A model generated the notes under the pieces. That model was not told where the DNA came from. It worked only from the letters and a program-made list of their open reading frames with translations, and did no database searches. This document shows, in pieces, positions 302 through 52,021 of a DNA stretch of 64,000 nt. The translations under genes and the position numbers were made by a program. Numbering within the stretch: position 1 is the first letter of the stretch; each line of letters opens with the position of its first letter. The stretch is from a virus (taxonomy: Duplodnaviria > Heunggongvirae > Uroviricota > Caudoviricetes). The stretch lies in IMG/VR virus record IMGVR_UViG_3300014205_008670, positions 1 to 64,000 of that record. One strand, given 5' to 3'.

Positions 302-760
302 ATGCCGAAAATATTAAATGTACCTAAAAGCAAACAAAAATATTCTTGGGATTGTGGTCCACATACATTTATATCTATAATTAAAGCATTAAAAAATACG
401 GTCCCTTCTGAAAACGAAATTATTAAAAATTTAAATGCAGATAAAAAGACTGGAACTGATCCGTTAAATTATATTGAAGCACTAAATAAAGAAAATATAA
501 AAAGTCATTTAATGGAGAACCCAGATATAGAAAAAATAAAGAAAGCAATTATATCAGGAAATCCTGTTGCTTTAATTGTTCAAGCCTATTCTGATTCAAA
601 GGAAGAAGTAATAAATTTAAAATCAGGACATTGGGTTGTATTGGTTGGAAGTGATAAAGATTATTTGTATTTCATAGATCCTTTAAGTAAGAGTGGAATT
701 ACAAAAATAAAAGAAAGTGATTTTCTTTATAGATGGAAAAACATAGTAAAAAAAAATCAA
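302..760 (+). other. C39-like papain-fold cysteine peptidase domain within the giant protein
   Basis: Cys in SWDCGPH (aa 18) and His in SGHWVVLVG (aa 110) at the spacing typical of C39 bacteriocin-processing peptidases. Confidence 0.6.
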
Positions 761-3700
761 CCTGAAAAAAGAACAGCAATAGTTATTGACTATAAAATAG
801 ATAAAATAATAAAAATAAAAAACGACATAGATTTAATGCCAATGTCTTTGGGAACAAATAAAATGAATTATTGGTATAAAAAAGCTTCACAAGAAGAAAA
901 CATTATTGAAAAGCTTGAAAATGATGATTATAAAAGTCATGAAGAATTAATTTCAGATCTTGAAAATTCTGTTTTAATCTGGAGAGAGGTAAGGTTAAAA
1001 AACGAAAATATTGTAATTTTATCTACTGATGGTAAAAAAGAATATGTTGCTATAGTCCATGATGGTTATAATGATTTTGATGATATTTTTGATTGGTTTT
1101 ATGGTATTTCTGATATTGACATATATAATTATGTAGACTATCTTGAAGAAAATGATTTTTGGGAAGGCGTATCTGAAGGGTATTTTCTTTATCATGCTAC
1201 AGACTGTAAGAATATTGAAAGTATAAAAGAAAAGGGACTTATTGTTGATTGCAAGACTAGAGCAATTACCAATAGAAACATGCCTTGTGCTGTTTTTTCG
1301 CACCCAAACGATACTTCGTTAGATTCATATGGGGATTGTGTTATTGGTATAAATGTTGGGCTAATGAAAAAAGACGGTTATATGCCAAAAACAATGAAAG
1401 AAAATGGTATGGAAGAGGCAGAAGTAAGAGAAATTTTGGCTCATAAACTAGGAATTGAAGATTTCGATATTTATGATGAACTAAATAAAGGTATGTCTCA
1501 AGGTTTAGATCCAGAAACAATAGCCTTTCTTGGTAATATTCCTCCAAAGTATTTAATATTTCCAGAAAATATAAAAGCAAACAAAAGTTCTTCAATTAAA
1601 ATAGCAACAAAAATGACACAAGAAGATTTTATAAAACAATTCAATGATTTTCAGAAAAAAATAAATAAAGTTTTTGAAAAGTATTCATATATAAATCCAG
1701 AATATATTAAAGAATACAAAGAAGACTTTTTTAAAAATCTAAATAGATTTATTGAACATTATGACTATACTTCGTTAGATTTAGATGAGTTAATGAAAAT
1801 TTTAGATGATATTTCTTATGCCTATAAAAATGCTGGATGGATCATGGATTCCGCATTTTCAAAGAAACAAGAAACAAAAAATATTTCTAATCTTAAAGAT
1901 TTTAGATCTGAAGTTTATTATCTTGTTATGCAGTTTAAAAAAGGATTTTTAGAAAATAAAAATCCAGAAGGAAGGCTGGATGTTTTACAAGAAGTTTTTG
2001 ATTTAGTAGATTATTCGCTAGATGAATTATCTTTAAAGTATAAGAATTATAGTGAAATTATAAAAAAAGCTGTTTCTATATGGTCTGAAGCTAAAACAAA
2101 AATAGCAGAACAAATCTTTCAGTCTCCGAATAGACTTTTCAACTACGTAAGGCATTTTATATCTAAAATTGAAGATTTAGATACTGAAACATCTGATATA
2201 GATTTTAACTCTGAAATAAACATAAAAGAGCATTATTATGATGGAATTTGTCCAGATTGTGGTATGGAAATTCCAGAAAACTCAAAAGTAAATGATTCTT
2301 GTAAAGATTGTGGTCATGTTTTTAATTTAGAATATGAATTAACAGAAGAAGATTTAGATAGGCTTGAAGATTCTATAGATAAAGAGTTTAGAGAAGATCT
2401 ATATAGGTTGGGATATAATTCTCTTAGAAAATTAGAAAAATTTCTTAATATTGAAAAAACAAAAGAGTTTGAACACTATGAGGGATTTGAAGATTTTGGA
2501 AATAATATATTTTTAAATAATAAAAGTTGGTATAAGTTATCTCAAAATGAAGATCACATTAATATAAATTTTGATCCAAGCGGAACTGGAAGCACTCCAA
2601 ATAATCTAAATATAGAATATCTTGGATTTACAAAATATCTTACCCCAAATGAATTTTTATCTAATGCTGCACCATTACAGGAAGTTAATGAAAAAACAAT
2701 ACAATACTTTATTGATAAATATAAAAATGGAGAACCAATTAGCAATCCAACATTTTATGCGATATACGACGAAGATAAAAATGTTTTAGAAATAACAGGA
2801 CATGAAGGAAGGCATAGAATGGAAGCCTTAAGGAGAGTTTCTCCTAATGAAAAAGTTCCTGTTCATATTTTTCCACAAGGTTTAAGGGCAAGACATTTTG
2901 TTGATAAAAATGTTAATGAAATTAGTTTTGTTCCAGAAAAATATTCAGAAAAAAAATATAGCGGTAAAAACTTTATTAAAAATTCAGCTAATATTGGTGA
3001 GCAAATAGATTTATTTGAAAATGATGTCGAACTATCACCATTTACTTTGTTAAATGGTTATTTTAAAATTCTTGAAGAAATAAAGCCATATTTAGATGAA
3101 TCCGTTTTCGTTCATTTTGATCAAACAAATATAGATGAAATGGTTCAAGAGGAAATGGAAAGTCAAGGCAATGATTATGCAAACAATTATTTGGAAAATT
3201 ATGACGATATATATGGACAACTAATACATTCATTAAGAGATCAAGGTTATTTTGATGAAAAAGAAAATACTTATAAATCACTATTACAAGAAATCTCCAA
3301 TAAAATAAAAGTAAAGTCCATGGAGATTTTGTCTTTAGAGCCATTTTCCAAACTGGTAATAGATAAAATAAATAATAATGACTTTTTTTTAACAAAGATT
3401 TTAAACAAAGAAATATTTGATGACAATGAAAATTATTTTAAAAATAATGAAGATGTTGATATTTTAAAAAATATATATTTAAATGGTGATTTTAATTCTA
3501 TTTGTTCTCAGTATGTTGATATTAATTATTTAATTGATAATTTCCCTTCAATTTTTGATTATTATTCTTATCGTGGACTAGAAAAGGGTCCTGGATATGA
3601 AACCCTTATACCAATACTAAACGAATATGATGATTCAAACTTTTCAATTGAAGAAGAAGATTTAGTGGATCTTATTCCATATCAAAGTAAAATAGAGTGG

Positions 3701-6700
3701 ATATTGGAAGAATATAATGATCAAATTTTAGAGTCTATTCAAGAGGGAACATATTATAGTCTTAAAGAAAGTTATAGTGAAATGGCAAGGAAGCTTGGTG
3801 TTGGTAAAAATGAAAAAGACCTTGAAAATTTTACAATATTAGATTTGTTTGTAAATGCTGGAATAAACATAATAGAAGATCCTGAAAATCCAGAAGGATC
3901 TTATAGTGATTCTTTTATTGAAGAACTTAAGGGAGGGGTATCATATTTGTATGAATTTTTTAAAGACAATAAAGACGAAAGTGTTGATTTTTCAGAAAAT
4001 TGCCTTTATCTTTTAAAACAAATGCAAGAAGTTTCTGTTTCTATTGTTATTTCAGGTTTAAATTTAGATTATGATTTTTATAAAGACAACGTGTTGTCAA
4101 TGTTTAAAAACCAACTAAAACTTACTTATCCTGGATCTTTTGAACTAAATTTTGCAAAATTTATTATGGAAATGTGTCATGAGTACGCTGAGATAAGAGA
4201 CGAAAAAAAAGAAGAAAAAGATGAGATTTTAGAAACATATCATTTAAATATTTCTAAAAAAGACGAGTTACTTTCCAGAATTTCAATAACAAAATCTGAA
4301 ATATCTTCATTAGAGGACTTAAAAAAAACAGGGAATATTTCAATAGTAGATTATGAAAAAAGAAATAGTGAACTAGAAAATAAAATGGAGAAAGAAAATA
4401 GAAGGCTAGAGACTCTTGAATATGATATAAAAAAAATACAAGAAAAGCTTCAGGTTGCACAAGAAAATATTCCAGAGTTTCTAAATTTAAGAAATTGTAA
4501 TGTTGCAAAAATTCTTATGAACAAAATTGCAGTATTATTAGAGAATAAAGATAAAGATAGTTTTTTCCCTAAATTTTGCTATATAACTAATCAAAATGTT
4601 AATAGAAATGTAAAAAAGAATTGGATTGCAAAAAACGCAATACCATTTCTAGAAACATATCTTAATACTACACCAAACCCAAATGGAAGCATACAAATTC
4701 TTTATCAAAAAATGGGACCACTAGCTGGAACTGATAGAGAAACAATTCCTCAAAATGTTGCTGCTGGTAAAAATTATGTTTTAAAATGGCTTTCTTCTAG
4801 AGTTTTTGATTCTGGTGAAGAAATACACAATTGCATTCAACCGTTTTTTGACCACACAATTATGGGACAACAATTTTTAGGAAAGTTTTTAGAAGATGAG
4901 TTTTTAGGAGAAAGAAATTCAAATACAATAAATTTAGTTTTACGAGCAAGAAAAGATCTCATTGAAAAAAAACATTTAATTCCTGGGGAAAAAAATCCAC
5001 CTTCAGAAGTTTTATGGAGTCCAAGTAAAAAAATTGAGAACTATATTGTTCCCGATAAAAAAAGGGATATTCTTGCATATCATGAATATTCATTGGCATT
5101 ATTGTATGGAGGTGTTGGAACTGGAGATACATTGGGAATGTTTTCAGTAGAACTTTTAAAGGAAGGCTACTCAAATAAAGCTATAGAACATTTTTTGTCT
5201 AAAATTAATTTTGAAAAAGGACAAAATATAACTCCATATAGTTCAAATCATGGAAATTTTGATTTCGTTATTACTTCAAAACTAGATCCCATAAATGTTG
5301 TTGCTGGAGATAAAACAAATTGCTGCTTTTCAATTGGAGATGCAGCAGAAAGTTCACTAGTAGATGCTTTTACAAATCCTGATTCCGGATTTTTAATAGT
5401 TTATATTGCAGGAACAAAAACGCTAGTGGCACAATCATGGATAAGATTAAATTATGATTCAGAAAAAACGCCTTCCTTATACTTAGACAATATTGAGACT
5501 GTATCTAAATACAAATTTTCTACAGACTTAACAAAATGTTTTAAGTTGTTTGCAGAAAAAATTAAAAAAGATAGAAATTATAAAAATGTTTATGTTGGTA
5601 AAAATCTTTCTAAAATAATCTTTCATTCTCCGGCAATACGACCAAATGATATTCCTCGCTTTCCCGGGGCAAAGTCCGGAATATACTCAGATTTATCTAC
5701 AGGTGCTTGGATTATTGCAAATAAAAAAACTGATAAAAATTGGTATAAGATTTCTGGAGTAGAAGATTTTGTTTCTGGCATTCAAAATTATGACATAAAT
5801 GAAGTAATTGAAAAATATCCAAATGAAAGCGAATTAAATGAAGAGCAAAAAAGAAATATTAGAAGTATCTCTTTTTCTACAAATTATGGGTCTTCTAAGT
5901 CTAAAACAAAATTATTTTTAAAATATCCACAATATACATATTATTCTCTTTATGTTTTAGAACAGTATTTTTTAGGATATAACCCTGAAGAAAAAGAAAT
6001 TTTATTAATTTGGAATAAAATGGATAAAGAGAAAGATCAGAATATACCAGATAGTTTGCCTGCTTATATTTATAACGATATAGCAAAAAATTATACTAAT
6101 ATGATTTCAACAGAGTTCGCAACCAATGTATTTAGAAACAAGACTAAATATCCCGGGGCTTTAATCTATGCATGTGCAAAAAAATTTCCAGACTTGTACA
6201 AATGTTTAAACTCTAATAATCCAGACACTGTTTTAGACTCTTTATTAAAAAAGATTGAGTTTCCAAATGAAAAAAACATTGAAGAATCAATAGAAATAAC
6301 AAGAAATATGGTTAGACCTTTAAATAATATAGACGGAACCGTTCTTTCAGAGGAAGAATATAAAAAAGAAAAAGAAATAAAAAATCAAAATCAAAAATAT
6401 TTTATTGATTTTTTTGTAGAATTAAACAAAGAAGAAAAAAAATTATTTAATATTTTAAAAAGAGATAGTGAAAGTAATTTTACATCAATTTATTCAAGTA
6501 GTTCTTATTGGAATATTTCTTTAGATTCAGCAAATCTTTATCTTCTTTTAGATAAGGTTTTAGATAGTTATAAAAACAAAAATAATTATATTGACAAAGA
6601 TTCTGGATTTAGAGTTTATAATTTTACAATTAAAGAAAAGCAATTATCATATATTTCTTTTTGTGGAAATTTAATTTCAAAAGAAATTTTAGAAAATATA

Positions 6701-9700
6701 ATTAAATCTTTAGGGTCTGTAACAAAAAAAGAATCCGAATTTAGCATCAGTAAATATGACTTTAATATTTATTTAAATGGAGAAAAAAAAGAAGTTTCAA
6801 TTAATAGTGAACATATTTCATCCCCAGATAATTGTTTTAGAAGGGATCGTTCAAATACAAATTTAAGTGGGTTTATATTACAAAGTTTTCCATTATACGA
6901 AGAATTATATATGGATATTTTTAATAAAAAATATAAAAATATTATAGATGAAACTGCTAATGAAAATGATTTTGTTTTACTGAAAACAGATCCATTATTT
7001 TATTTACTAGGAGAATTAGCAGGAAATGAAGCATCATATATTTTCGTTAATAGACATAAAGTTATTGATAGAGAAACATATAATAAAATATCTAATCCAT
7101 TTTCCTATAGTGTTACTACTAATGATTTTCTTGAGTTATATAAAAAAATAATTTCTAAAATTCCACAAAATATTAGGAAGTCTTTTGAAAAGCAAAATAT
7201 TGAACATCTGTTTAATTTTAAAATAAACGATCCATTAAAAAGTAATACTTGGACCTATTTGTGCTCTGGTGTTTTTTCACCTGAATTTATTCAATCTTTA
7301 ATCGAAAAATGGCCAGAAGATGCAAGAAAGGTAAGAAATTTAATTAAGTCTAATTCTAGTGAAGAAGTAAATAATGAACTAAAAGAAAAGATTGATATTT
7401 TTTCAGATAAAAAATTAAAAAATTTAAACAAAGATATTTCAGAATTTTTACTTGGTCAAAATAATTCAAAATTATTCCATGTTTCAGATTTTCCTGAACT
7501 AAAAGAATTTTCTACAGATTTTTTAAACTTTTTTTTAAAAAACAACGATAAAGAAACATACAACTATCAAGAAAGTGTAAATGAAACTAAACTTCAATCA
7601 GCTTTAAAAAACTTGGAAAAAATAGAAATATATATAGTGGATAGCCATAACTTAATAGAACAGTTTGGTGAAGAACAATTGAGAGGCTATAGAATTCATC
7701 CTGAAAATATTTCTGGATTTTATTCTGGTCCATATAATATTTTCCAAAAACCAAATCCTATTATAGTTATTTTTTCTGATAATACAAGTTCTGCTGAGGA
7801 TATATGTGAATCTGTTTCAGAGATATTGGGAATGAGACCTATTGGCTCAACTGGTTTAAATCTAAGAAAAGAACAAACACTATGGCATGAAACAACTCAT
7901 GGTTTAATAGATTTAGCAATTGGAGATATTGAAAAGGAAAGAAATTATTATGAAAACACAACAACATGGCTTTCTGATATTGAAGAAGTTTTAACAATTT
8001 CTTATGGCAATTTAGACTATATAAAAAATAGAGTTTCTGAAATGGTTGAAAGAACATTTCCTAAAGACAAAAAAATGATAGAAGGGTTTATCGAAAATCT
8101 AAAAAAAGATTTAATAAAAGAATTCCCATTGGAATTTTACGGTGTTTATTCAGAAAAAGCAAAAATAGAAATAGACGAATACGTAAAAGAAGAATTACCA
8201 GAAATTCTTTCAAAAGAAAATATGGACTCCTTAAAACAATCAATTGTTTCTATGTTTTCAAAATTCTTTTTATCAAAGATGTTAGTCCAAAAATTTGACT
8301 CTATTAATAGTATAGGTGATGATAGAAATAAACTAAAGTTCCCTTCTGATAAAATAGTTCCAGAAGTAAATGAAGAACCTTATGTGCAAAATAAAAAAGA
8401 TGAATTTATTTTAGAATTAGAAAAAAGAAGCGATTACCAAGACTTTATAAATAAAGTAAAAGAAAGAATAAAAGGCATTACCTTTAGCAAAAACAAAGAT
8501 ACTATGTATGAATATAAATCATATATAAATAATACTAAAAACAATATGAGTCCTATTTTTACTATTTATGATCTGATTAGATTTATATATGATCAAAACT
8601 TTTACAGTTTAAGTGATGTTGATGTAAATAAAATAAATCCATATTTTGAAGATATTATACCAGAATCACTACTTAATGATATAACTGAATATGTAATAAT
8701 AGAAAAAGAAAAACTTAATATACCCTTAAATATTCAGGAACCTGAAATTACATCAGAAGAGGCTGAAGATTTGGGAAATATGATTTATGACACAAGAGAA
8801 AATATTGGAAAAGGATGGGAATGGTTAGCTTTTAATGAAAATAAATTGTATAAAAAAGCTAAAACAAATTGGTATAAAATTTCTCAACATACAAATACAT
8901 TGGTTTGTATAGATATACAAGAAGAATGGAAAGAATATTTTTCAAACATTGATATGTGTGATTTTTTTAAATTTATTAATAGTTATGATAAAACTATTTA
9001 CGTAGTAGATTCTTTGGCTTCAGGAATTGACTTTTATAGCGATTATAAAGCAAAACTTCCAAAAGATTTGGCATTTCAATTCTATAACAATAGCAATGAA
9101 GACAAAAATAATGACGAATTTGATTTTGATAGTTTGTATGAATATGGAGAATGTCCAGTTTCTCCTAAAATAGATTTTCAGATAAAAAACTATGGAGGAA
9201 TACTAAGAGAGGCTATTGATGCTGGCATGGACAATGAAGTAAAGTTTATGCTTAAATCTATTATAAACAAAGATATAAATGAAGAAAAGTTAGATTATAT
9301 AGAAGAAACAATTAAAGAACTTGATAAACATACTGGAATTGATTATTGGGAAAAAGAATTTGACTTTCTAGAAGCAGATCAATTGGCACAAAAAATTTAT
9401 GAAAAATTTTCTTATCATTCCTCAGAACTTATCCAAGGTATTCCTAATGATTTTTGGAAAAGCTTAGGCTCTATAGATATTTGTGGTGGTGGAATTAATG
9501 AATGTTTAGCGGAAGTTACTGCTGCATTAGATATCCTTGATGTTCAATATAATATTATTAATAAATATACTTATGGAAGCAATGAAAAGTTTTATAAAAA
9601 CTCATTGGCCAAAACTTTGACAAACAATGATTTGTCCATTACAGTACCTAATTATAGAAAGGAAAGTAAAATGCTTACTTTTGCTCAAATGGCAGATGGT

Positions 9701-11413
9701 GGTAAGGCGTATAATACAGACCTACAAATAGATCTTCCGCCTACGTTAAACAATATTCTAAATACTTTAAAACAAAACAATTCATACGGATTGCTTGTTG
9801 GTGGTGCTGTCCGAGATAAATTTCTTGGTCTAGAACCAAAAGATTTAGATATAGAAGTTTATGGCATAAGCTATGAACAGCTTTTTAAAATCTTAAGTAA
9901 ATTTGATAGAAAAAATTCTCCAGATGTTGTTGGTAAATCATTTGGGATAATAAAAATAACAGATAACGAAGGTAATGACTATGATTTTTCAATTCCAAGA
10001 AGAGAATCAAAAACAGGAGTTGGACATCAGGGATTTTCTGTAGAGTTTGATCCTAATATTACTCCAAAGGAAGCTGCTGCAAGAAGAGACTTTACTATAA
10101 ACTCTTTGTCGTACGATCCTTTGACACATCAGGTTTTTGATTATTTTGGTGGTGTAGATGATATACAAAATAAAATTCTTAAAGCTACTTCTCCTGCATT
10201 TGCCGAAGATTCACTAAGGGCATTAAGAGGGATGCAGTTTGCCGGAAGATTTGGCTTTTCTTTAGAAGATCAAACAGCAGAAATGATAAGGGGTTTAATA
10301 AGCGATTATCCGTCTCTAGCTAAAGAACGTGTTTCTGGTGAATGGATGAAGTTTTTTACAAAGAGTAATCATCCCGGAAAAGCTTTAGAATTTTTAATTA
10401 AAAGTGGTTGGATAAAATTATATCCAGAAATAAATGCCTTTATTCCAGACAAATATGAAGAACAATTGTTAGAAGAAATAAAGTCAGATAATTATCCGGG
10501 TATTTCTGGACATAAAAGTATAAGGCAAGAGTTTGAATGGCATCCCGAAGGGTCTGTTTTACTTCACACAATTTATGTTTTAGAAGCTTCTGCAAAAATT
10601 GCTGACGAACAAAACATAAAGGGTGAAGACAGGGCTGTTATTTTAATGTCAGCATTATGTCACGATTTAGGTAAAGCTACACATACAAAAATAGAAAATA
10701 AAAAAGGAATACAAAGAGTAACTTCTCCGGGACATGAAGAGGCTAGTGTTCCTTTAGCTAAAACATTTTTAGAAAGTGTTGGAATCAAAAAAAATCTTAT
10801 TGACAGAGTTTTGCCATTAGTAGGAAATCATATGCAGCATATAACATATGATTCAAAATCTAAAAACGGAAATGTCAGACAAATTGCTGAAAGAATTTTT
10901 CCGGCTACAATAAGAGAATTAGAGTTAGTAATAAGATCAGATATGGGAGGAAGACCTCCATTACCCGGTGGGTTACCTCCAGAAGCAGAGCAAATGGTTT
11001 CTGACGCTAGAGAACATGGTGTTTATGAAGGTAAATATCAAAACCTAATTCAAGGAAGAGATTTGATTGAAGAGTTTAATCTTAAGCCCGGAATAATTAT
11101 GGGGGAAACATTAAAATTTGTTAGACAAAAAATGTTAGAGGGTTTGGTTTCCAGTCGTGAAGAAGCACTTATTGTTGCTGATGATTTTTTGAAGAGAAAA
11201 CAAAATTTTATTAACGGTAAAGATGTTTTAGAGGTAATGGAAACAGATAAAGGGGGACCGTTTGTAAAAGAAATATTAGATTTGGCATGGGAACAACAAA
11301 AAAATGGGACACTAAAGACAAGAGAAGAATCAATTAACTGGTTAATTGGATATGTTAAAGGTAATCTAGAAATAAAACCAGAAACAAACAACAACATTAT
11401 TTCAGAGGAATAA
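302..11413 (+). CDS. giant multidomain (polyvalent-type) protein, 3703 aa. N-terminal C39-like cysteine peptidase, internal ParB/Srx-like motif, Cys4 zinc ribbon, C-terminal class II CCA-adding/poly(A) polymerase head + HD phosphohydrolase domain
   Basis: Uninterrupted 11.1-kb ORF. N-terminus has KYSWDCGPHTF with a downstream SGHWVVLVGSDKDYLYFIDP His box, a papain-like C39 pattern. ITGHEGRHRMEALRR resembles the ParB/sulfiredoxin DGHHR box. CPDCG...CKDCG is a zinc ribbon. The C-terminus has LLVGGAVRDKFLGLEPKDLDIE (GGxVRD + DxD), RRDFTINSL (class II motif C), EDSLRALRGMQFAGRFGF (motif D), then HPEG...CHDLGK (HD domain). Confidence 0.85.
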   Translation: MPKILNVPKSKQKYSWDCGPHTFISIIKALKNTVPSENEIIKNLNADKKTGTDPLNYIEALNKENIKSHLMENPDIEKIKKAIISGNPVALIVQAYSDSKEEVINLKSGHWVVLVGSDKDYLYFIDPLSKSGITKIKESDFLYRWKNIVKKNQPEKRTAIVIDYKIDKIIKIKNDIDLMPMSLGTNKMNYWYKKASQEENIIEKLENDDYKSHEELISDLENSVLIWREVRLKNENIVILSTDGKKEYVAIVHDGYNDFDDIFDWFYGISDIDIYNYVDYLEENDFWEGVSEGYFLYHATDCKNIESIKEKGLIVDCKTRAITNRNMPCAVFSHPNDTSLDSYGDCVIGINVGLMKKDGYMPKTMKENGMEEAEVREILAHKLGIEDFDIYDELNKGMSQGLDPETIAFLGNIPPKYLIFPENIKANKSSSIKIATKMTQEDFIKQFNDFQKKINKVFEKYSYINPEYIKEYKEDFFKNLNRFIEHYDYTSLDLDELMKILDDISYAYKNAGWIMDSAFSKKQETKNISNLKDFRSEVYYLVMQFKKGFLENKNPEGRLDVLQEVFDLVDYSLDELSLKYKNYSEIIKKAVSIWSEAKTKIAEQIFQSPNRLFNYVRHFISKIEDLDTETSDIDFNSEINIKEHYYDGICPDCGMEIPENSKVNDSCKDCGHVFNLEYELTEEDLDRLEDSIDKEFREDLYRLGYNSLRKLEKFLNIEKTKEFEHYEGFEDFGNNIFLNNKSWYKLSQNEDHININFDPSGTGSTPNNLNIEYLGFTKYLTPNEFLSNAAPLQEVNEKTIQYFIDKYKNGEPISNPTFYAIYDEDKNVLEITGHEGRHRMEALRRVSPNEKVPVHIFPQGLRARHFVDKNVNEISFVPEKYSEKKYSGKNFIKNSANIGEQIDLFENDVELSPFTLLNGYFKILEEIKPYLDESVFVHFDQTNIDEMVQEEMESQGNDYANNYLENYDDIYGQLIHSLRDQGYFDEKENTYKSLLQEISNKIKVKSMEILSLEPFSKLVIDKINNNDFFLTKILNKEIFDDNENYFKNNEDVDILKNIYLNGDFNSICSQYVDINYLIDNFPSIFDYYSYRGLEKGPGYETLIPILNEYDDSNFSIEEEDLVDLIPYQSKIEWILEEYNDQILESIQEGTYYSLKESYSEMARKLGVGKNEKDLENFTILDLFVNAGINIIEDPENPEGSYSDSFIEELKGGVSYLYEFFKDNKDESVDFSENCLYLLKQMQEVSVSIVISGLNLDYDFYKDNVLSMFKNQLKLTYPGSFELNFAKFIMEMCHEYAEIRDEKKEEKDEILETYHLNISKKDELLSRISITKSEISSLEDLKKTGNISIVDYEKRNSELENKMEKENRRLETLEYDIKKIQEKLQVAQENIPEFLNLRNCNVAKILMNKIAVLLENKDKDSFFPKFCYITNQNVNRNVKKNWIAKNAIPFLETYLNTTPNPNGSIQILYQKMGPLAGTDRETIPQNVAAGKNYVLKWLSSRVFDSGEEIHNCIQPFFDHTIMGQQFLGKFLEDEFLGERNSNTINLVLRARKDLIEKKHLIPGEKNPPSEVLWSPSKKIENYIVPDKKRDILAYHEYSLALLYGGVGTGDTLGMFSVELLKEGYSNKAIEHFLSKINFEKGQNITPYSSNHGNFDFVITSKLDPINVVAGDKTNCCFSIGDAAESSLVDAFTNPDSGFLIVYIAGTKTLVAQSWIRLNYDSEKTPSLYLDNIETVSKYKFSTDLTKCFKLFAEKIKKDRNYKNVYVGKNLSKIIFHSPAIRPNDIPRFPGAKSGIYSDLSTGAWIIANKKTDKNWYKISGVEDFVSGIQNYDINEVIEKYPNESELNEEQKRNIRSISFSTNYGSSKSKTKLFLKYPQYTYYSLYVLEQYFLGYNPEEKEILLIWNKMDKEKDQNIPDSLPAYIYNDIAKNYTNMISTEFATNVFRNKTKYPGALIYACAKKFPDLYKCLNSNNPDTVLDSLLKKIEFPNEKNIEESIEITRNMVRPLNNIDGTVLSEEEYKKEKEIKNQNQKYFIDFFVELNKEEKKLFNILKRDSESNFTSIYSSSSYWNISLDSANLYLLLDKVLDSYKNKNNYIDKDSGFRVYNFTIKEKQLSYISFCGNLISKEILENIIKSLGSVTKKESEFSISKYDFNIYLNGEKKEVSINSEHISSPDNCFRRDRSNTNLSGFILQSFPLYEELYMDIFNKKYKNIIDETANENDFVLLKTDPLFYLLGELAGNEASYIFVNRHKVIDRETYNKISNPFSYSVTTNDFLELYKKIISKIPQNIRKSFEKQNIEHLFNFKINDPLKSNTWTYLCSGVFSPEFIQSLIEKWPEDARKVRNLIKSNSSEEVNNELKEKIDIFSDKKLKNLNKDISEFLLGQNNSKLFHVSDFPELKEFSTDFLNFFLKNNDKETYNYQESVNETKLQSALKNLEKIEIYIVDSHNLIEQFGEEQLRGYRIHPENISGFYSGPYNIFQKPNPIIVIFSDNTSSAEDICESVSEILGMRPIGSTGLNLRKEQTLWHETTHGLIDLAIGDIEKERNYYENTTTWLSDIEEVLTISYGNLDYIKNRVSEMVERTFPKDKKMIEGFIENLKKDLIKEFPLEFYGVYSEKAKIEIDEYVKEELPEILSKENMDSLKQSIVSMFSKFFLSKMLVQKFDSINSIGDDRNKLKFPSDKIVPEVNEEPYVQNKKDEFILELEKRSDYQDFINKVKERIKGITFSKNKDTMYEYKSYINNTKNNMSPIFTIYDLIRFIYDQNFYSLSDVDVNKINPYFEDIIPESLLNDITEYVIIEKEKLNIPLNIQEPEITSEEAEDLGNMIYDTRENIGKGWEWLAFNENKLYKKAKTNWYKISQHTNTLVCIDIQEEWKEYFSNIDMCDFFKFINSYDKTIYVVDSLASGIDFYSDYKAKLPKDLAFQFYNNSNEDKNNDEFDFDSLYEYGECPVSPKIDFQIKNYGGILREAIDAGMDNEVKFMLKSIINKDINEEKLDYIEETIKELDKHTGIDYWEKEFDFLEADQLAQKIYEKFSYHSSELIQGIPNDFWKSLGSIDICGGGINECLAEVTAALDILDVQYNIINKYTYGSNEKFYKNSLAKTLTNNDLSITVPNYRKESKMLTFAQMADGGKAYNTDLQIDLPPTLNNILNTLKQNNSYGLLVGGAVRDKFLGLEPKDLDIEVYGISYEQLFKILSKFDRKNSPDVVGKSFGIIKITDNEGNDYDFSIPRRESKTGVGHQGFSVEFDPNITPKEAAARRDFTINSLSYDPLTHQVFDYFGGVDDIQNKILKATSPAFAEDSLRALRGMQFAGRFGFSLEDQTAEMIRGLISDYPSLAKERVSGEWMKFFTKSNHPGKALEFLIKSGWIKLYPEINAFIPDKYEEQLLEEIKSDNYPGISGHKSIRQEFEWHPEGSVLLHTIYVLEASAKIADEQNIKGEDRAVILMSALCHDLGKATHTKIENKKGIQRVTSPGHEEASVPLAKTFLESVGIKKNLIDRVLPLVGNHMQHITYDSKSKNGNVRQIAERIFPATIRELELVIRSDMGGRPPLPGGLPPEAEQMVSDAREHGVYEGKYQNLIQGRDLIEEFNLKPGIIMGETLKFVRQKMLEGLVSSREEALIVADDFLKRKQNFINGKDVLEVMETDKGGPFVKEILDLAWEQQKNGTLKTREESINWLIGYVKGNLEIKPETNNNIISEE
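2650..2900 (+). other. ParB/Srx-like (ParB N-terminal nuclease-like) motif region within the giant protein
   Basis: LEITGHEGRHRMEALRRV resembles the ParB/sulfiredoxin GxxRxxA / DGHHR box. Weaker than the other domain calls. Confidence 0.4.
9740..10860 (+). other. class II tRNA nucleotidyltransferase (CCA-adding / poly(A) polymerase-like) head-neck plus HD domain, C-terminal part of the giant protein
   Basis: GGAVRD, DLDIE, RRDFTIN and EDxLRxLRxxRF motifs are present in canonical order. The downstream HD domain (H...HD...D) matches bacterial Cca. Confidence 0.8.
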
Positions 11414-12147: not shown

Positions 12148-12176
12148 AATAAAAAGGAGGAGGCACTGCCTCCTCC
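12148..12176 (-). terminator. intrinsic terminator downstream of the Hsp20 gene
   Basis: Perfect 10-bp inverted repeat GGAGGAGGCA-c-TGCCTCCTCC, followed on the - strand by TTTTTATT. Confidence 0.6.
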
Positions 12177-12203
12177 CAATTATTTCTATTTTAAATTAAA
12201 CTG

Positions 12204-15895: not shown

Positions 15896-18508
15896 ATGTC
15901 TCTTAACAAAACAGATAGTGGCGTTTTTTACTTTGGGGTTCTTCCAGAAGAAGAAGTTTTAATTCAAGCTAGTCGTCATCTAGTTGATAACCGTTGTGTT
16001 TTTATGGGGTTAATGTCAGATTGTCACTTAGGGTATTCAACCCCAATAGGTGGAGTAGCTGTTTATAAAGATGTTATTTCTCCATCTGGAGTGGGATTTG
16101 ATATTTCATGTATTGTCGAAGGATCAGAGGTTACTACAGGTTCTGGAGAACTTGTAAGGATTGAGGATATCTCCAAAGAGAATGTGGGACTTACTATGAA
16201 GTTGTCCGGATCTCTTGTTGAAACAAATATTACTGGTGTATCTTGCAAAGAAGTCGAAGAAATATTAGAGATAGAATTAGAAAATGGAGATTTTATAAGA
16301 TTAACAGAAGATCATCTTCTTTTGACGGAATATGATGGCGTGAAATCTTGGCGGGAAGCAAATAGTTTTTCTATGGGAGACAGGATTATGGTCTCTCCTT
16401 ATATTGGTTGTAAAGGGAAATTAACGAAACATCATATTTTCATGAGAATTTTGGGATATTTGATGGGAGATGGACATCTTCCAAGAGATAGCAATAGAAG
16501 CGTTTTTTATTCTTCTATTGATAAAGATGCTGATTCCATTGCAAAAGATATAGAAAAATATTATGAGTATCTTGTTCATCAACAAGATATACAAAAATCT
16601 ATATCTGTAAATCCTAATGACATTCCATCTATAGATACAGTAAATGTTGGAATTTTTCGTAGGGACAAAAAAACTATTACAGGAAAAAACACAAGAGAAA
16701 ATTGTGTTTATTTTTTTTCCAGTTATATTAGGAAAGAATTTGAACTTTACGGGTGTCCTGTTGGTAAAAAAGAGTTTGATATTTCAAGACTACATGAAAT
16801 CTTTTCAAACCTTTCGTTGGTTGATAAGTCCAATTTCATCGGAGGGATTTTGGGCGCTGAAGCGGGATGTCCAAAAATTGGTAAGAATAATGTTTTTAAC
16901 CCTTGGATAAAGATGGGAGGTATAAACGGAAGAGATTTCTTGGAATTTATCTCTTCTCTTCTTGAGGAATTCGATTTCGAATCTCATATTACTCTCTCAA
17001 CTGAAGAAGATGGAGAAAAAAAAGCAACATATGTCCTCCAAATCATTGGAGGGATGGACGAGTTTGAAAGATTTTATAGAACTTTCAAATTTTTTTATTC
17101 TGATTATAAAGAGATAGAAAAGGCAAAAGTTCTTTCTTATATTTGGAGTAAAAAGAAAATAGTTAACAAAAAAATTGCAGCCAGAGAACTGTGTCGCTTT
17201 CTCAGGTCTCAAGGTTGCAAAGTGAATTCTTTGCATAAAGAAGCTTCTAAAATGCTTGGATATGAAGTAAATAAAAGATTTGCTCTAAGGTCCATTTATG
17301 AGGATTGCGGAGATCCAAGAATTAGTGAAGAAAAACCAATTATCAATACAAATGATCAAGGAATTTGGGTCAAGATTGTATCTATTAATAAACTTAAAGA
17401 AAAGACAAAAGTTTACGATATAGGAATTGACCATGTAGGTCATAACTTTATTGCAAATGGAGTAGTTGTGCATAACTGTGGGAATAAAGCTGTAAAGTTA
17501 AACATAAAGGGTGTTACTATAAGAAAAGATATAAAAAAAATAATTGAAGAAATATCGAAAAATATTTCATTTGGAGTAGGTAGATGCAATAACAAAAAAG
17601 TAGATCATGAATTGTTTGATGATCCTACTTGGAATTTAGATTGTATTAAAGAAATATCAAGAGGTGTTAACAAAAAAAATGATTTAAGAGATATGGCAAT
17701 ATCCCAATTGGGCACTATTGGTTCCGGAAATCACTATCTAGACCTGTTTGTAGACGAAAATGATGATGTATGGATTGGAGTTCATTTCGGATCTCGTGGA
17801 CTTGGACATAAAATAGCAACATATTTTCTACATGAAGCTGGTGGAAAAGATGATATTAATGCCTATCCTACATTAATTAGTGTAAATAGCGACTTAGGAC
17901 AAGAGTATATTTCTTGTATGAAGCTGGCTGGTAGATATGCCTATGCCGGAAGAGATTGGGTTTGTAATACTGTTGCAAATATACTTCGTGGTAAAATAAT
18001 AGAAGAAGTACATAACAATCATAATTTTGCATTTGAAGAAACTCATTTTGGAGAAAGTTATTGGGTTATTAGAAAAGGTGCCACGCCTGCTTTTCCGGGT
18101 CAAAAAGGTTTTGTTGGCGGAAGCATGGGAGATAACAGCGTAATTATTGAGGGTGTAGACTCAGAAGAATCAAGACAATCATTTTATTCAACGGTACATG
18201 GCGCTGGTCGTGTTATGGGAAGAATGGAAGCTAAAGGAAAGTTTAAACAAAAAAAAGATTCTTCAGGGAAAAAAACCGGAGAATTTGAATGTGTAAGAGA
18301 ACCTAAAGTAAAAAAAGAAGATATGCTAAAATGGATTAAAGAAAAGGGAGTTGAACTTTATGGTGCAGATGTTGATGAATCTCCATTTGTTTATAAAAGA
18401 TTAAATGAAGTTCTTGGGTTTCATTCAAACACAATAAAAATCCTTCATGACTTACAACCAATTGCAGTAATGATGGCTGGTAACGAAAGAGATCCGTACA
18501 AAGATTGA
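15896..18508 (+). CDS. rtcB: RtcB RNA ligase (3'-phosphate/5'-OH) interrupted by an intein
   Basis: N-extein has SDCHLGYSTPIGGV and SPSGVGFDIS, followed by the C-extein CGNKAV. Extein total is ~414 aa, like E. coli RtcB. The 456-aa insert has LAGLIDADG blocks. Confidence 0.85.
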   Translation: MSLNKTDSGVFYFGVLPEEEVLIQASRHLVDNRCVFMGLMSDCHLGYSTPIGGVAVYKDVISPSGVGFDISCIVEGSEVTTGSGELVRIEDISKENVGLTMKLSGSLVETNITGVSCKEVEEILEIELENGDFIRLTEDHLLLTEYDGVKSWREANSFSMGDRIMVSPYIGCKGKLTKHHIFMRILGYLMGDGHLPRDSNRSVFYSSIDKDADSIAKDIEKYYEYLVHQQDIQKSISVNPNDIPSIDTVNVGIFRRDKKTITGKNTRENCVYFFSSYIRKEFELYGCPVGKKEFDISRLHEIFSNLSLVDKSNFIGGILGAEAGCPKIGKNNVFNPWIKMGGINGRDFLEFISSLLEEFDFESHITLSTEEDGEKKATYVLQIIGGMDEFERFYRTFKFFYSDYKEIEKAKVLSYIWSKKKIVNKKIAARELCRFLRSQGCKVNSLHKEASKMLGYEVNKRFALRSIYEDCGDPRISEEKPIINTNDQGIWVKIVSINKLKEKTKVYDIGIDHVGHNFIANGVVVHNCGNKAVKLNIKGVTIRKDIKKIIEEISKNISFGVGRCNNKKVDHELFDDPTWNLDCIKEISRGVNKKNDLRDMAISQLGTIGSGNHYLDLFVDENDDVWIGVHFGSRGLGHKIATYFLHEAGGKDDINAYPTLISVNSDLGQEYISCMKLAGRYAYAGRDWVCNTVANILRGKIIEEVHNNHNFAFEETHFGESYWVIRKGATPAFPGQKGFVGGSMGDNSVIIEGVDSEESRQSFYSTVHGAGRVMGRMEAKGKFKQKKDSSGKKTGEFECVREPKVKKEDMLKWIKEKGVELYGADVDESPFVYKRLNEVLGFHSNTIKILHDLQPIAVMMAGNERDPYKD
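16109..17476 (+). mobile_element. intein with LAGLIDADG homing-endonuclease domain inserted at the RtcB catalytic Cys
   Basis: Starts at Cys (CIVEGSEV), ends ...NGVVVHN with +1 Cys. DOD motifs ILGYLMGDGHL and IGGILGAEAG. The flanking exteins rejoin to the RtcB DISCG active-site motif. Confidence 0.75.
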
Positions 18509-27993: not shown

Positions 27994-28006
27994 TTGGAGT
28001 AAAAAA

Positions 28007-49850: not shown

Positions 49851-49899
49851 TATTATTAGTTTTGTTTTACGGACATCATGTAGTTTAAAGGATTCAAAA

Positions 49900-52020: not shown

Positions 52021-52021
52021 A

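What the first reader, a model, noticed from the sequence alone, without database searches (positions are those of the whole stretch)
302..11413. 3703-aa polyvalent-type protein with C39-like peptidase, ParB-like motif and a complete class II CCA-adding/poly(A) polymerase + HD domain
The C-terminal ~370 aa carry every diagnostic motif of class II tRNA nucleotidyltransferases (GGAVRD, DLD, RRDFTIN, EDxLRxLR) plus an HD domain, as in bacterial Cca. The N-terminus is a C39-like Cys/His peptidase that could autoprocess the polyprotein, and a ParB/Srx-like box sits in between. A phage protein this size with a tRNA 3'-end repair/tailing enzyme embedded is unusual. It would make sense as an injected counter-defence effector that restores tRNA CCA ends removed or damaged by host defences, or that tails RNAs.
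Basis: partly seen in the sequence, partly recalled or inferred. Interest (0 to 1): 0.8.

Follow-up and report, generated by a model that had tools for sequence, protein, structure and literature searches.

The report
Giant modular megaphage protein with CCA enzyme
A single 3,703-residue protein of an uncultured phage-G-like megaphage strings several unrelated enzymes together, ending in a complete tRNA CCA-adding/repair enzyme, and its modules are separated by a short "WYK" leader that also starts dozens of unrelated small proteins in the same phage lineage.

Summary
ORF 302-11413 is one uninterrupted 3,703-aa gene.

- Its last ~560 aa are a class II tRNA nucleotidyltransferase with all catalytic motifs, plus an HD domain and a tRNA-binding tail.
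- The N-terminus is a C39-like Cys/His peptidase; the Pfam score is only just above threshold.

- A Tpt1/DarT-like ADP-ribosyltransferase domain (aa ~190-430).
- A zincin-type HExxH module conserved in the only two other relatives (3,064 and 3,624 aa; their CCA module is internal).
- A zinc ribbon.
- A recurring [NS]WYK[KIL][AS]Q motif exactly at module boundaries.

That motif is also the N-terminal leader (W at residue 2-3) of many unrelated solo proteins: ARTs, GNATs, a 2H phosphoesterase, a kinase, SLT and CCA enzymes. They occur in uncultured megaphages with the same phage-G-like capsid gene. The motif is essentially absent from cellular genomes.

An orthologous locus has a 957-aa MWYK-CCA gene, so the giant grew by fusing leader-tagged cassettes onto a CCA gene. 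RtcB and Ro60 lie downstream.

It is a new variant of polyvalent proteins. Virion delivery, proteolytic processing and enzyme activities remain inferences.

The parts
302..11413 (+). Single ORF of 3703 aa, the giant modular protein
   Evidence: identical protein P0001 on a 99-kb ENA contig
317..682 (+). C39-like papain-fold Cys/His peptidase domain (aa 6-127; Cys18, His110)
   Evidence: Pfam PF13529, 25.5 bits against cutoff 24; weak PDB match 3erv 'putative C39-like peptidase' with the His aligned; homologue in a 595-kb uncultured phage
869..892 (+). WYK leader 1 (YWYKKASQ, aa 190-197), preceded by a relic start Met at aa 188
866..1588 (+). ADP-ribosyltransferase-fold domain, Tpt1/KptA- and DarT-like (aa 189-429; H298, Y343, E367)
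2249..2314 (+). CxxC...CxxC zinc-ribbon-like element (aa 650-671)
   Evidence: motif scan; weak Pfam UPF0547 hit
2525..2545 (+). WYK leader 2 (SWYKLSQ, aa 742-748)
2564..2953 (+). ParB/sulfiredoxin-fold domain with invariant HEGRHR box (aa ~755-884; box at aa 834-839)
5738..5758 (+). WYK leader 3 (NWYKISG, aa 1813-1819)
   Evidence: same position in P0002 (aa 340) and P0003 (aa 338)
5669..6286 (+). Module of unknown function shared with the two other giants (aa 1790-1995)
   Evidence: BLASTP 34% and 26% identity to P0002 and P0003; alignment
6818..8890 (+). Large module shared with the two other giants (aa 2173-2863), with a zincin-type motif TLWHETTH (HExxH at aa 2529-2533, nt 7886-7900) and a downstream invariant E...GN
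   Evidence: sequence motif only, no profile or structural confirmation
8867..8887 (+). WYK leader 4 (NWYKISQ, aa 2856-2862), at the end of the zincin module
   Evidence: orthologous tags at P0002 aa 1383 and P0003 aa 1389
8888..9670 (+). Cassette of unknown function (aa ~2863-3123)
   Evidence: no Pfam or PDB sequence hit
9671..9688 (+). Degenerate leader (MLTFAQ, aa 3124-3129) at the start of the CCA cassette
   Evidence: compared by eye with the N-termini of solo homologues, e.g. WYKTAQSPSVYQFDLQIDM against LTFAQMADGGKAYNTDLQIDL; homology to P0002/3/4/5 starts at aa 3083-3120
9794..10180 (+). Class II nucleotidyltransferase head domain (aa 3165-3293): motif A GGAVRD...DLD, E3235, motif B RRDFTIN, motif C DYFGG
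10205..10438 (+). Motif D EDSLRALR (aa 3302-3309), motif E region, and neck/body (PolyA_pol_RNAbd aa 3318-3379)
10562..10846 (+). HD phosphohydrolase domain (aa 3421-3515; H3422, H3454-D3455, GHEE 3477, GNHMQH 3508)
   Evidence: Pfam HD E 1e-8; HDIG and Cas3-HD NCBIfam hits; conservation
11045..11173 (+). C-terminal tRNA_NucTran2_2-like tRNA-binding region (aa 3582-3624)
   Evidence: Pfam 33.4 bits against cutoff 27; TIGR02692 aligns over aa 3147-3620
12156..12177 (.). Bidirectional GC-rich hairpin terminator closing the transcription unit that holds the giant gene
15896..18508 (+). Context: RtcB RNA ligase interrupted by an intein with a LAGLIDADG endonuclease
19325..21010 (+). Context: Ro60/TROVE + vWA RNA-quality-control protein

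Best explanation
The gene encodes a polyvalent-type chain of enzymes from an uncultured megaphage whose head genes resemble those of phage G.

The chain has at least six cassettes:
1. a C39-like cysteine peptidase;
2. an NAD-dependent ADP-ribosyl/2'-phosphotransferase-like (Tpt1/DarT-like) domain, followed by a helical region and a zinc ribbon;
3. a ParB/sulfiredoxin-fold NTPase/nuclease-type domain plus about 900 aa of unknown function;
4. a block ending in a zincin-like HExxH module;
5. a 265-aa unknown cassette;
6. a complete class II CCA-adding enzyme with an HD phosphoesterase domain and a tRNA-binding tail.

Cassettes 2 to 5 each begin with the peptide [NS]WYK[KIL][AS]Q, and cassette 6 begins with a degenerate copy. 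In this phage lineage the same peptide is the N-terminal leader of many separate small effector-type proteins.

Origin (inferred from synteny): the giant arose by in-frame fusion of such leader-tagged genes onto the N-terminus of an ancestral leader-tagged CCA gene.

Mechanism (inferred, not shown):
- The chain is cut into units at or near the leaders by its own peptidases (zincin and/or C39-like).
- The CCA/HD unit heals and rebuilds damaged tRNA 3' ends: the HD domain removes 2',3'-cyclic or 3'-phosphates and the NTase re-adds C-C-A.
- It acts alongside the phage's RtcB ligase and Ro60 to keep translation running against host tRNA-directed defences.
- The ART and ParB/Srx units act on other host or RNA targets.
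- The protein may be delivered in the virion, as proposed for polyvalent proteins, or simply made early. This is open.
For: Domain calls:
- CCA/HD: with all motifs A-E and the HD residues conserved.
- C39-like.
- ParB/Srx fold.
- HExxH plus a downstream Glu invariant in all three giants.

Modularity:
- The only relatives among 5.8 billion protein clusters are two giants that share four modules in a different order, with the CCA module internal.
- P0003 is seen in three independent assemblies.

Leaders:
- All 4 WY dipeptides of the protein lie in the motif, against 0.04 expected by composition.
- P0002 and P0003 each have 9 copies, at BLAST module edges, on both sides of the CCA module and at the C-terminus.
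- The motif is more conserved than its flanks (81% against 60%).
- The same peptide starts 99 of 390 collected proteins, with W at residue 2-3 in 77 of them.
- It starts 44 unrelated ORFs in viral contigs, up to 7 per 14 kb.
- Synonymous codons vary.
- It is at chance level in 596 Gb of cellular genomes.
- Ten tag-bearing contigs carry the window's type of major head protein.

Effector vocabulary:
- Tagged solo proteins include ART-PolyVal, GNAT, 2H/Acb1-like, AAA_33 kinase, cREC, PolyA_pol and SLT.
- The ParB/Srx domain also occurs in P0191 next to ART-PolyVal, and in large phage proteins with tail-lysozyme or GNAT domains.

Fusion origin:
- The orthologous locus L008 has a GNAT-DUF5661 gene, then a 957-aa protein starting MWYKISS whose CCA module is 69-72% identical, then Hsp20 on the opposite strand.
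- This is the same order as around the giant.
- A relic Met precedes leader 1.

RNA-repair context: RtcB, Ro60 and IF3 lie 4-10 kb downstream.
Against: - There is no evidence of packaging. The gene is about 25 kb from the portal, in an operon ended by a terminator at 12156-12177. It is followed by Hsp20, SPFH, M28 peptidase and RNA-repair genes rather than virion genes.
- No MuF or other virion-anchoring domain was found.
- No cleavage has been observed. The leaders could be inert relics of fusion.
- The zincin assignment rests on a short motif only.
- The C39 score is marginal.
- NCBIfam CCA equivalog cutoffs are missed by a wide margin (139 against 451 bits), so the nucleotide specificity is unknown.
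- The Tpt1 catalytic tetrad was not checked. The H-Y-E triad fits a generic ART as well.
- This exact giant is seen on a single contig only.
- No close relatives were found in IMG/VR.
- No tRNA genes or obvious tRNA-targeting context occur in the window.
Confidence: 0.6

Rival explanations
1. The protein is a non-packaged cytoplasmic housekeeping enzyme. The CCA/HD module matures or maintains the megaphage's own tRNAs, as standalone phage CCA enzymes are thought to do. The N-terminal 3,100 aa are accreted accessory domains with unrelated roles, with no injection and no counter-defence role.
For: - Standalone CCA-adding enzymes are common in phages: 468 records; jumbo and huge phage surveys.
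- The orthologous gene in L008 and L006 is a much shorter CCA protein.
- The gene lies among auxiliary genes, not virion genes.
- The CCA module has higher GC (31% against ~26%) and far higher conservation than the rest. That is consistent with it being the selected core.
Against: - No tRNA genes occur in the 64-kb window, though the genome is much larger.
- The fusion partners (ART, ParB/Srx, zincin, papain-like peptidase) are conflict-type domains, not tRNA-maturation factors.
- The fusion of CCA to such modules is kept in two distant giants.
Confidence: 0.25
2. The C-terminal module is not a CCA-adding enzyme. It is a poly(A)/oligo(A) polymerase or an A-adding or CC-adding variant that tails host or phage RNAs, for example to mark host mRNAs for decay.
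For: - Class II CCA enzymes and bacterial poly(A) polymerases share the same head domain.
- pcnB models also hit (TIGR01942, 100.8 bits; PRK11623, 55 bits).
- PDB poly(A) polymerases score only slightly below CCA enzymes.
- No equivalog cutoff is reached.
Against: - The best NCBIfam, PHROG and PDB matches are all CCA-adding enzymes.
- The templating EDxxR motif D and the RRD motif B are intact.
- An HD domain and the tRNA_NucTran2_2 tail are typical of bacterial CCA enzymes, and TIGR02692 aligns end to end.
- Source annotations of homologues read 'CCA-adding enzyme'. These are only automatic names.
Confidence: 0.1
3. The WYK motif is a DNA-level signal rather than a peptide. TGGTATAAA resembles an extended -10 promoter (TGnTATAAT), so the motifs would be internal promoters or recombination hot spots, and the peptide conservation would be a by-product.
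For: - The commonest DNA form is TGG TAT AAA.
- The motifs sit at cassette junctions where recombination evidently occurred.
- A short conserved DNA string could promote cassette shuffling.
Against: - Synonymous positions vary (TAC 8 of 63, AAG 10 of 63, AAT/AAC 33:22, nine Ala/Ser codons).
- In solo genes the motif lies just after the start codon, where a promoter makes no sense.
- The flanking residues ([NS] before, [KI][AS]Q after) are conserved as amino acids.
- Promoter-like sites are not enriched in the gene (72 found, 82 expected).
Confidence: 0.05
4. The 3,703-aa ORF is an assembly or sequencing artefact (chimeric contig or lost stop codons), or a decaying chain of pseudogenes, rather than one expressed protein.
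For: - This exact protein is known from one contig only.
- In the nearest relatives the CCA enzyme is a separate, shorter gene.
Against: - An 11.1-kb stop-free frame in 26% GC DNA has a chance probability of about 1e-161.
- Two other giants with the same kind of architecture exist, one of them in three independent assemblies.
- Catalytic residues are intact in every recognisable domain.
- Flanking synteny is intact.
Confidence: 0.03

Closest known systems
Polyvalent proteins of phages and conjugative elements (Iyer, Burroughs, Anand, de Souza & Aravind 2017, PMC5512222; e.g. P1 DdrB/DarB, N4 virion RNAP-type proteins)
   Same: - One polypeptide combines several unrelated catalytic domains and is encoded by a phage.
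- Its domain vocabulary overlaps: an ART, a ParB/Srx-fold domain and a zincin-type HExxH module proposed there as the autoprocessing hub.
- Homologues of its ParB/Srx domain sit next to Pfam ART-PolyVal, tail-lysozyme and GNAT domains in other large phage proteins.
   Different: - The survey text I searched never mentions 'CCA' or 'papain'; its Pol-beta NTases are minimal protein-modifying ones, and its four peptidase superfamilies are zincin-like, assemblin-like, DD and LonC. I did not read the full list of 131 domains.
- The ART here is Tpt1/DarT-like, not the HYD2-type Pfam ART-PolyVal.
- There is no MuF fusion and the gene is not adjacent to virion genes.
- The cassettes are delimited by a conserved WYK leader, which that paper does not describe.
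Bacterial multifunctional CCA-adding enzyme with HD domain (E. coli Cca type, NCBIfam PRK10885; actinobacterial type TIGR02692) and standalone phage CCA-adding enzymes (PHROG 2244; jumbo and huge phages)
   Same: - Class II head domain with motifs A-E, an HD domain with H...HD...H...D residues, and a C-terminal tRNA-binding region.
- Phage homologues are widespread as solo genes.
   Different: - Here the enzyme is the last ~15% of a 3,703-aa chain. In the two relatives it is an internal cassette.
- Scores are far below the equivalog cutoffs (139 against 451 bits).
- It belongs to a metagenomic subfamily of ~470-560-aa proteins, many of which start with MWY[KR].
RNA 2'-phosphotransferase Tpt1/KptA and DarT (nucleic-acid-directed ADP-ribosyltransferases)
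   Different: - Sequence identity is 14-17%.
- The family has an H-Y-E type triad (H298, Y343, E367), like conventional ARTs.
- Presence of the Tpt1 Arg-His-Arg-Arg catalytic tetrad was not examined.
- The family has no Pfam model.
N-terminal capsid-targeting sequences and propeptides of packaged phage proteins (T4 internal proteins; SPN3US/phiKZ ejection proteins cleaved by the prohead protease; PMC5694885 and PMC10052503 listed, not read in detail)
   Same: A short N-terminal peptide is shared by otherwise unrelated proteins of one phage lineage. This is the pattern expected of a sorting or processing signal. The related phage G packages about 104 proteins, including many enzymes.
   Different: - The sequence (M-N-W-Y-K-K-A-Q) is unrelated to the T4 CTS or to the S/A/G-x-E cleavage motifs (from my own knowledge).
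- It also occurs internally and at C-termini of giants.
- It was not found in 41 kb of phage G.
- No experimental link to packaging or cleavage exists.

Membership tests
Class II tRNA nucleotidyltransferase / poly(A) polymerase family (Pfam PF01743) | Pol-beta-type head domain with motif A (GGxVRD...DxD) and the third carboxylate | tested here: met
   PF01743 E 7e-21. GGAVRD 3167, D3181/D3183 and E3235 align with 6ibp and are conserved in 16 sequences.
Class II tRNA nucleotidyltransferase / poly(A) polymerase family (Pfam PF01743) | Motif B RRD (ribose recognition), motif C DxxGG, motif D EDxxR (protein template for C/A), motif E | tested here: met
   RRDFTIN 3261, DYFGG 3280, EDSLRALR 3302 and ERVSGE 3342 are aligned to CCA enzyme 6ibp and conserved.
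Class II tRNA nucleotidyltransferase / poly(A) polymerase family (Pfam PF01743) | Neck/body/tail region that binds tRNA | tested here: met
   PF13735 scores 33.4 bits against cutoff 27. PF12627 scores 18.8 bits, below its cutoff of 22. TIGR02692 aligns over aa 3147-3620.
CCA-adding enzyme proper (as opposed to poly(A) polymerase, A-adding or CC-adding enzymes) | Addition of exactly C-C-A to tRNA 3' ends; score above a curated equivalog threshold | tested here: not met
   The best equivalog, PRK10885, scores 138.9 bits against a cutoff of 451, and all others are below cutoff too. Activity is not testable here. The ranking of hits favours CCA over pcnB.
HD phosphohydrolase superfamily (PF01966) | H...HD...H...D metal-binding residues | tested here: met
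   PF01966 scores 35.5 bits against cutoff 22. H3422, H3454-D3455 and GHEE 3477 are conserved.
Peptidase C39-like (PF13529, papain fold) | Profile match above the gathering score, with the catalytic Cys and His | tested here: met
   25.5 bits against cutoff 24, over profile positions 2-142 of 143. Cys18 sits in SWDCGP, and His110 in SGHWVV aligns with the His of 3erv. The margin is small.
Peptidase C39-like (PF13529, papain fold) | Cleavage of a leader peptide or of its own polypeptide | not testable with these tools
   No double-glycine leader context was seen. Autoprocessing is inference only.
ParB/sulfiredoxin superfamily | ParB/Srx alpha+beta fold | tested here: met
ParB/sulfiredoxin superfamily | Conserved Arg-containing [DE]GxHR / GxxR box in the active-site pocket | tested here: met
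   H-E-G-R-H-R: H, G and both R are invariant and E is at least 90% conserved in 55 sequences. Placement in the pocket was not inspected.
ParB/sulfiredoxin superfamily | Match to Pfam ParBc or another sequence profile | tested here: not met
   No Pfam hit at E<=1. Homologues carry no Pfam annotation. The profile against PDB finds nothing.
DdrB-like ParB domains of polyvalent proteins (Iyer 2017) | Asp/Asn at the end of strand 2 and an extra helix bearing a conserved Tyr | not tested
   No alignment to DdrB was made.
Polyvalent proteins (Iyer 2017) | Two or more domains with disparate biochemical activities in one polypeptide of a phage or conjugative element | tested here: met
   Peptidase, ART, ParB/Srx, NTase and HD domains in one ORF. 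Phage origin is shown.
Polyvalent proteins (Iyer 2017) | Zincin-like metallopeptidase hub domain (HExxH helix plus a downstream Glu helix after a three-stranded sheet) | tested here: inconclusive
   TLWHExxH and a downstream E...GN are invariant in the three giants.
Polyvalent proteins (Iyer 2017) | Location next to late/virion genes or fusion to MuF; packaging and injection with the DNA | tested here: inconclusive
   The gene has the same orientation as the head module but lies about 25 kb upstream of the portal, separated from it by RNA-repair, IF3 and sigma-factor genes. No MuF domain was found. Packaging is not testable here.
ADP-ribosyltransferase superfamily (Tpt1/KptA-DarT branch) | ART fold with the NAD-binding His on strand 1 | tested here: met
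ADP-ribosyltransferase superfamily (Tpt1/KptA-DarT branch) | Tpt1 catalytic Arg-His-Arg-Arg tetrad and RNA-binding N-lobe | not tested
   Residue-level superposition is not available. The near-invariant R320 (TRAITNR) may or may not correspond.

The most novel reading that the evidence does not exclude
The [NS]WYK[KI][AS]Q peptide is a previously undescribed sorting or processing signal of a large uncultured clade of megaphages with phage-G-like capsids. It marks a whole repertoire of effector enzymes (ARTs, GNATs, 2H phosphoesterases, kinases, lytic transglycosylase, CCA-adding enzymes) for a common fate.

Candidate fates are loading into the capsid for injection, cleavage by a phage protease, or timed degradation. 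On the last point: cleavage just before the Trp would expose an N-terminal Trp, which is a bacterial N-degron. That is my inference, not tested.

On this reading the giant proteins are polyproteins of such cargo units. The 3,703-aa protein would deliver a tRNA 3'-end repair enzyme, an RNA/DNA-directed ART and a ParB/Srx enzyme into the cell at the moment of infection.
Probability: 0.3. Interest if true: 0.85.

Novelty: new variant of a known kind. Interest (0 to 1): 0.66.

Why it matters
- **Repair enzyme in a polyvalent protein.** Polyvalent proteins are thought to be the first proteins a mobile element puts into a new host. This one carries a complete tRNA CCA-adding/HD repair enzyme, next to a Tpt1/DarT-like ART. 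That extends their known repertoire from attack and DNA protection to repair of the translation apparatus. It suggests that damage to tRNA 3' ends is a defence these phages meet very early.
- **A defined cargo set.** The WYK leader gives a simple, searchable handle on a set of probable effector proteins in uncultured megaphages, and on the boundaries of the units inside their giant proteins. If it is a sorting or cleavage signal, one could predict the injected proteome of phages that cannot be grown. It could also be used to target foreign cargo.
- **How giant genes grow.** The locus documents how giant phage genes grow: by in-frame fusion of tagged cassettes onto a conserved core gene.

Tried and rejected
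1. Megablast of the first 25 kb against 50,697 phage records found nothing.
2. tblastn of aa 1-3000 against the phage records found only two weak single-domain hits, both in uncultured huge phages, and nothing in phage G.
3. A Pfam ParBc assignment for the HEGRHR box got no hit. Sequence and profile searches against PDB were also empty. Only structure comparison worked. The box is formally an HExxH string too, but the fold is ParB/Srx, not zincin.
4. My by-eye guess that aa 2857-3121 is isochorismatase/nicotinamidase-like ('LVCIDIQ', 'ICGGG...C...TA.D') got no support from Pfam or PDB sequence search. I dropped it.
5. There are no tRNA genes or Rfam families (for example Y RNA for Ro60) in the window at gathering thresholds.
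6. The literature string search for the motif (MNWYK, NWYKK and similar) gave only irrelevant hits.
7. A 30-nt BLAST of the commonest tag DNA against phage records gave only noise. There was no tag in 41 kb of phage G. I did not scan the remaining ~450 kb of phage G.
8. Searches for more giants in IMG/VR, with the N-terminal 3,140 aa and with a profile of the zincin module, found nothing.
9. The promoter scan showed no enrichment and is uninformative.
10. I considered an internal restart at Met188. It has only a weak GGGA about 11 nt upstream, so I did not pursue it.
Full report
**1. Observation**

The window has an ATG-initiated ORF at 302..11413 on the + strand, encoding 3,703 aa. With the local composition (A 41%, T 32%) a stop is expected in 9.5% of codons. 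The chance of 3,703 open codons is therefore about 1e-161. The identical protein (P0001) is on record from one 99-kb ENA metagenome contig.

*CCA/HD module*
- Pfam finds PolyA_pol (aa 3165-3293, E 7e-21), HD (3421-3515, E 1e-8), tRNA_NucTran2_2 (3582-3624, E 5e-8) and a weak PolyA_pol_RNAbd.
- PHROGs gives 'tRNA nucleotidyltransferase' at E 5e-60.
- NCBIfam ranks CCA-adding models first (PRK10885 at 139 bits, TIGR02692 aligned end to end). All are far below the equivalog cutoffs.
- The best solved-structure matches are CCA-adding enzymes (6ibp, 1miv).

*C39-like peptidase*
- The N-terminal C39-like domain passes Pfam's gathering score narrowly: 25.5 against 24 bits, with nearly full profile coverage.
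- Cys18 and His110 are in the expected contexts.

*ParB/Srx box*
- The box (HEGRHR, aa 834-839) gets no sequence-profile support.
- It lies in a conserved ~130-aa domain with about 170 homologues and an invariant H-x-G-R-x-R core.

**2. What else is in the protein**

*ART domain.* A deep HMMER search with aa 1-1100 shows that aa ~190-430 belongs to a large, Pfam-less family (569 hits at E<1e-10) of mostly solo 220-270-aa proteins.
- Its profile hits the NAD-binding core of RNA 2'-phosphotransferase Tpt1/KptA (E 2e-3), then DarT and PARPs.
- Invariant or near-invariant H298, Y343 and E367 form an H-Y-E-type triad.

*Zinc ribbon.* A CxxC...CxxC element lies at aa 650-671.

*Zincin-type module.* A second HExxH (TLWHETTH, aa 2527-2534), with a downstream E...GN, is invariant in the three known giants. 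This is the signature of the zincin-like metallopeptidase that Iyer et al. (PMC5512222) identify as the hub and probable autoprocessing domain of polyvalent proteins. I could not confirm it by profile or structure.

About 1,900 aa remain unassigned.

**3. Relatives and architecture**

Among 5.8 billion protein clusters, the N-terminal 3,140 aa find only two relatives. P0002 (3,064 aa) is from groundwater. P0003 (3,624 aa) is present in three independent assemblies.

| Module in P0001 (aa) | Position in P0002 (aa) | Identity |
|---|---|---|
| 185-443 | 1753-2006 | 34% |
| 1790-1995 | 327-531 | 34% |
| 2173-2863 | 728-1389 | 27% |
| 3120-3681 (CCA/HD) | 2128-2660 | 52% |

- The four modules are shared in a different order.
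- In both relatives the CCA/HD module is internal and followed by 400-750 further residues.
- The closest relatives of the CCA module itself (72% and 65% identity) are a 957-aa and a 650-aa protein. Most homologues are solo 470-560-aa enzymes.

The 957-aa gene (locus L008) sits in the same neighbourhood as the giant. A GNAT+DUF5661 gene lies upstream, and small ORFs and a minus-strand Hsp20 gene lie downstream. Only the CCA module is shared. The two loci are thus orthologous, and the window's phage has about 3,000 extra residues on the N-terminal side of its CCA gene.

**4. The WYK delimiter**

*In the giants*
- All four WY dipeptides of the giant lie in one context: YWYKKASQ (190), SWYKLSQ (742), NWYKISG (1813) and NWYKISQ (2856). 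That is 4 observed against 0.04 expected.
- P0002 and P0003 each have nine copies.
- The positions coincide with the BLAST module edges, including both sides of the CCA module (2135/2674 and 2350/2889) and the extreme C-terminus (KNWYKIKDK*).
- Between P0002 and P0003 the xWYK core is 81% identical, against 60% for the 20-residue flanks.
- At orthologous module starts the tags survive at 27-34% overall identity.
- The CCA cassette of the window protein starts with a degenerate copy (MLTFAQ, aa 3124-3129).

*On solo proteins*
- The same peptide is the N-terminus of solo proteins: 54 of 148 deep-search hits (mostly ART-like) and 47 of 120 CCA homologues, including the 957-aa orthologue (MWYKISS). 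Only 2 of 120 HEGRHR-domain proteins have it.
- W is residue 2 or 3 in 77 of 99 cases.
- Back-translated patterns recovered 45 loci from viral contigs.
- These loci hold 44 N-terminal and 8 internal occurrences, with up to seven tagged genes in 14 kb.
- Thirty-five tagged proteins share nothing but M1, W3, Y4 and K5 (6% mean column identity).
- Their Pfam content reads like the polyvalent-protein domain list: ART-PolyVal, GNATs, 2H phosphoesterase/Acb1-like, AAA_33 kinase, cyclic-phosphate-processing cREC, PolyA_pol, SLT, DUF5661 and HTHs.

*Nature and distribution of the signal*
- Synonymous codons vary freely, so selection acts on the peptide.
- The 24-nt pattern has 2 matches in 596 Gb of cellular genomes. 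From pattern degeneracy and uniform base frequencies I estimate about 0.5 by chance. It matched 12 loci in the viral collection.
- Ten tag-bearing contigs, including ones of 461-548 kb, also carry the window's type of major head protein at 63-73% identity.
- That head protein is 54% identical to phage G gp27, and the sigma-portal-protease-MCP order matches phage G.
- The leader is therefore a hallmark of an uncultured megaphage clade with a G-like capsid.
- It was not found in 41 kb of phage G. The literature string search found nothing.

**5. Context**

The giant gene starts 5 nt after a 74-aa ORF. It is followed by a 136-aa ORF and a strong bidirectional terminator at 12156-12177.

Downstream lie Hsp20 (minus strand), an SPFH protein, an M28 peptidase, RtcB with an intein, Ro60/TROVE, IF3 and a sigma factor. 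After that come very large ORFs, a portal at 36675, a prohead-protease-containing 1,876-aa ORF, and the major head protein.

The immediate context is therefore RNA repair and translation, not virion structure.

**6. Interpretation**

*Shown*
- The domain composition.
- The cassette architecture and its delimiters.
- The lineage.
- The orthology to a shorter CCA gene.

*Inferred*
- The chain is cut into units by its own peptidases.
- The CCA/HD unit repairs tRNA 3' ends. Established knowledge of E. coli Cca is that the HD domain has phosphatase and 2',3'-cyclic phosphodiesterase activities and the NTase rebuilds CCA.
- It does so in concert with RtcB and Ro60, against tRNA-directed host defences.
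- The WYK leader gives the units a common fate.

Virion delivery is plausible by analogy with polyvalent proteins, and with phage G's particle proteome of 104 proteins. It has no direct support here.

The main rival is a plain cytoplasmic tRNA-maturation enzyme with accreted domains. Poly(A)-type activity, a DNA-level role for the motif, and an assembly artefact are less likely, for the reasons given under the rival explanations.

**7. Novelty**

- Standalone CCA-adding enzymes are well known in jumbo and huge phages, and polyvalent proteins are known.
- What I could not find described is a class II CCA/HD enzyme, a papain-like peptidase and a Tpt1-like ART as cassettes of a polyvalent-type giant.
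- The text of the 2017 survey never mentions 'CCA' or 'papain'; its NTases are minimal Pol-beta domains, and its peptidases are zincin, assemblin-like, DD and LonC.
- I also found no description of the WYK leader.
- I rate the finding a new variant of a known kind. The leader is the most interesting and least explained part.

Noticed in passing
window 869-892, 2525-2545, 5738-5758, 8867-8887, 33023-33043; loci L010-L054: The short peptide [NS]WYK[KIL][AS]Q marks cassette boundaries in the giant and in its two relatives. It is also the N-terminal leader (W at residue 2-3) of many unrelated solo proteins in uncultured megaphages with the same capsid type. It is virus-specific and selected at the peptide level. 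Its function is unknown.
   Followed up: yes
window 27800-33295: An 1,831-aa ORF (TTG start as listed) has weak Pfam hits to SLOG/YpsA and to ADDT (amino acid:DNA transferase, aa 1272-1410). About 75 aa from its end sits a WYK leader (QWYKVAENKEFVSGN) resembling cassette 1814 of the giant. It may be a second polyvalent-type protein, possibly linked to DNA hypermodification.
   Followed up: partly
window 15896-18508: The RtcB RNA ligase gene is interrupted by an intein with a LAGLIDADG homing endonuclease (870 aa in all).
   Followed up: partly
window 19325-21010 and 21185-22377: A Ro60/TROVE + vWA protein is followed by IF3 and a sigma-70-family factor. No Y-RNA or any other Rfam family was detected in the window at gathering thresholds.
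   Followed up: partly
window 36675-40157: The portal protein ORF is 1,160 aa. It has a LAGLIDADG domain inserted (aa ~363-420, probably an intein) and a C-terminal DUF559/REase-like domain (aa 1080-1150).
   Followed up: no
window 40949-46579: A 1,876-aa ORF has residues ~90-250 matching prohead (head maturation) protease families. The remaining ~1,600 aa have no match. This is a giant protease fusion next to the head genes.
   Followed up: no
window 49822-53716: A DNA methyltransferase ORF carries LAGLIDADG and HNH endonuclease segments and is followed by a 576-aa homing-endonuclease/GNAT ORF. The region is dense with selfish elements, and GC drops from 39% to 26% at about 50 kb.
   Followed up: no
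L005 2-1696 (parent contig, just upstream of the window) and L008 3554-7153, L006 7009-9772: A GNAT + DUF5661 protein (one gene or split into two) is always encoded immediately upstream of the CCA gene in these phages. DUF5661 is also fused to some CCA homologues (P0026, P0035, P0116). This is a conserved but unexplained partnership.
   Followed up: partly
loci L013, L016, L019, L020, L026, L028, L054: A recurrent small protein family carries, shortly after the WYK leader, a '[YN]x[DE]IGH' motif. It is present in several paralogues per phage and also as an internal cassette of long ORFs. It has no annotation.
   Followed up: no
L001 5255-6322 and L004 18033-19244: The phages with the two other giants also encode a separate 355-aa PolyA_pol-family protein and a T4 Rnl1-type RNA ligase near the giant gene, along with PAS/HisKA and response-regulator genes directly upstream of it.
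   Followed up: no
window 8888-9670 (aa 2863-3123): By eye this cassette resembles isochorismatase/nicotinamidase-type hydrolases (LVCIDIQ..., ICGGG..C..TA.D). No profile or PDB sequence search supports that.
   Followed up: partly
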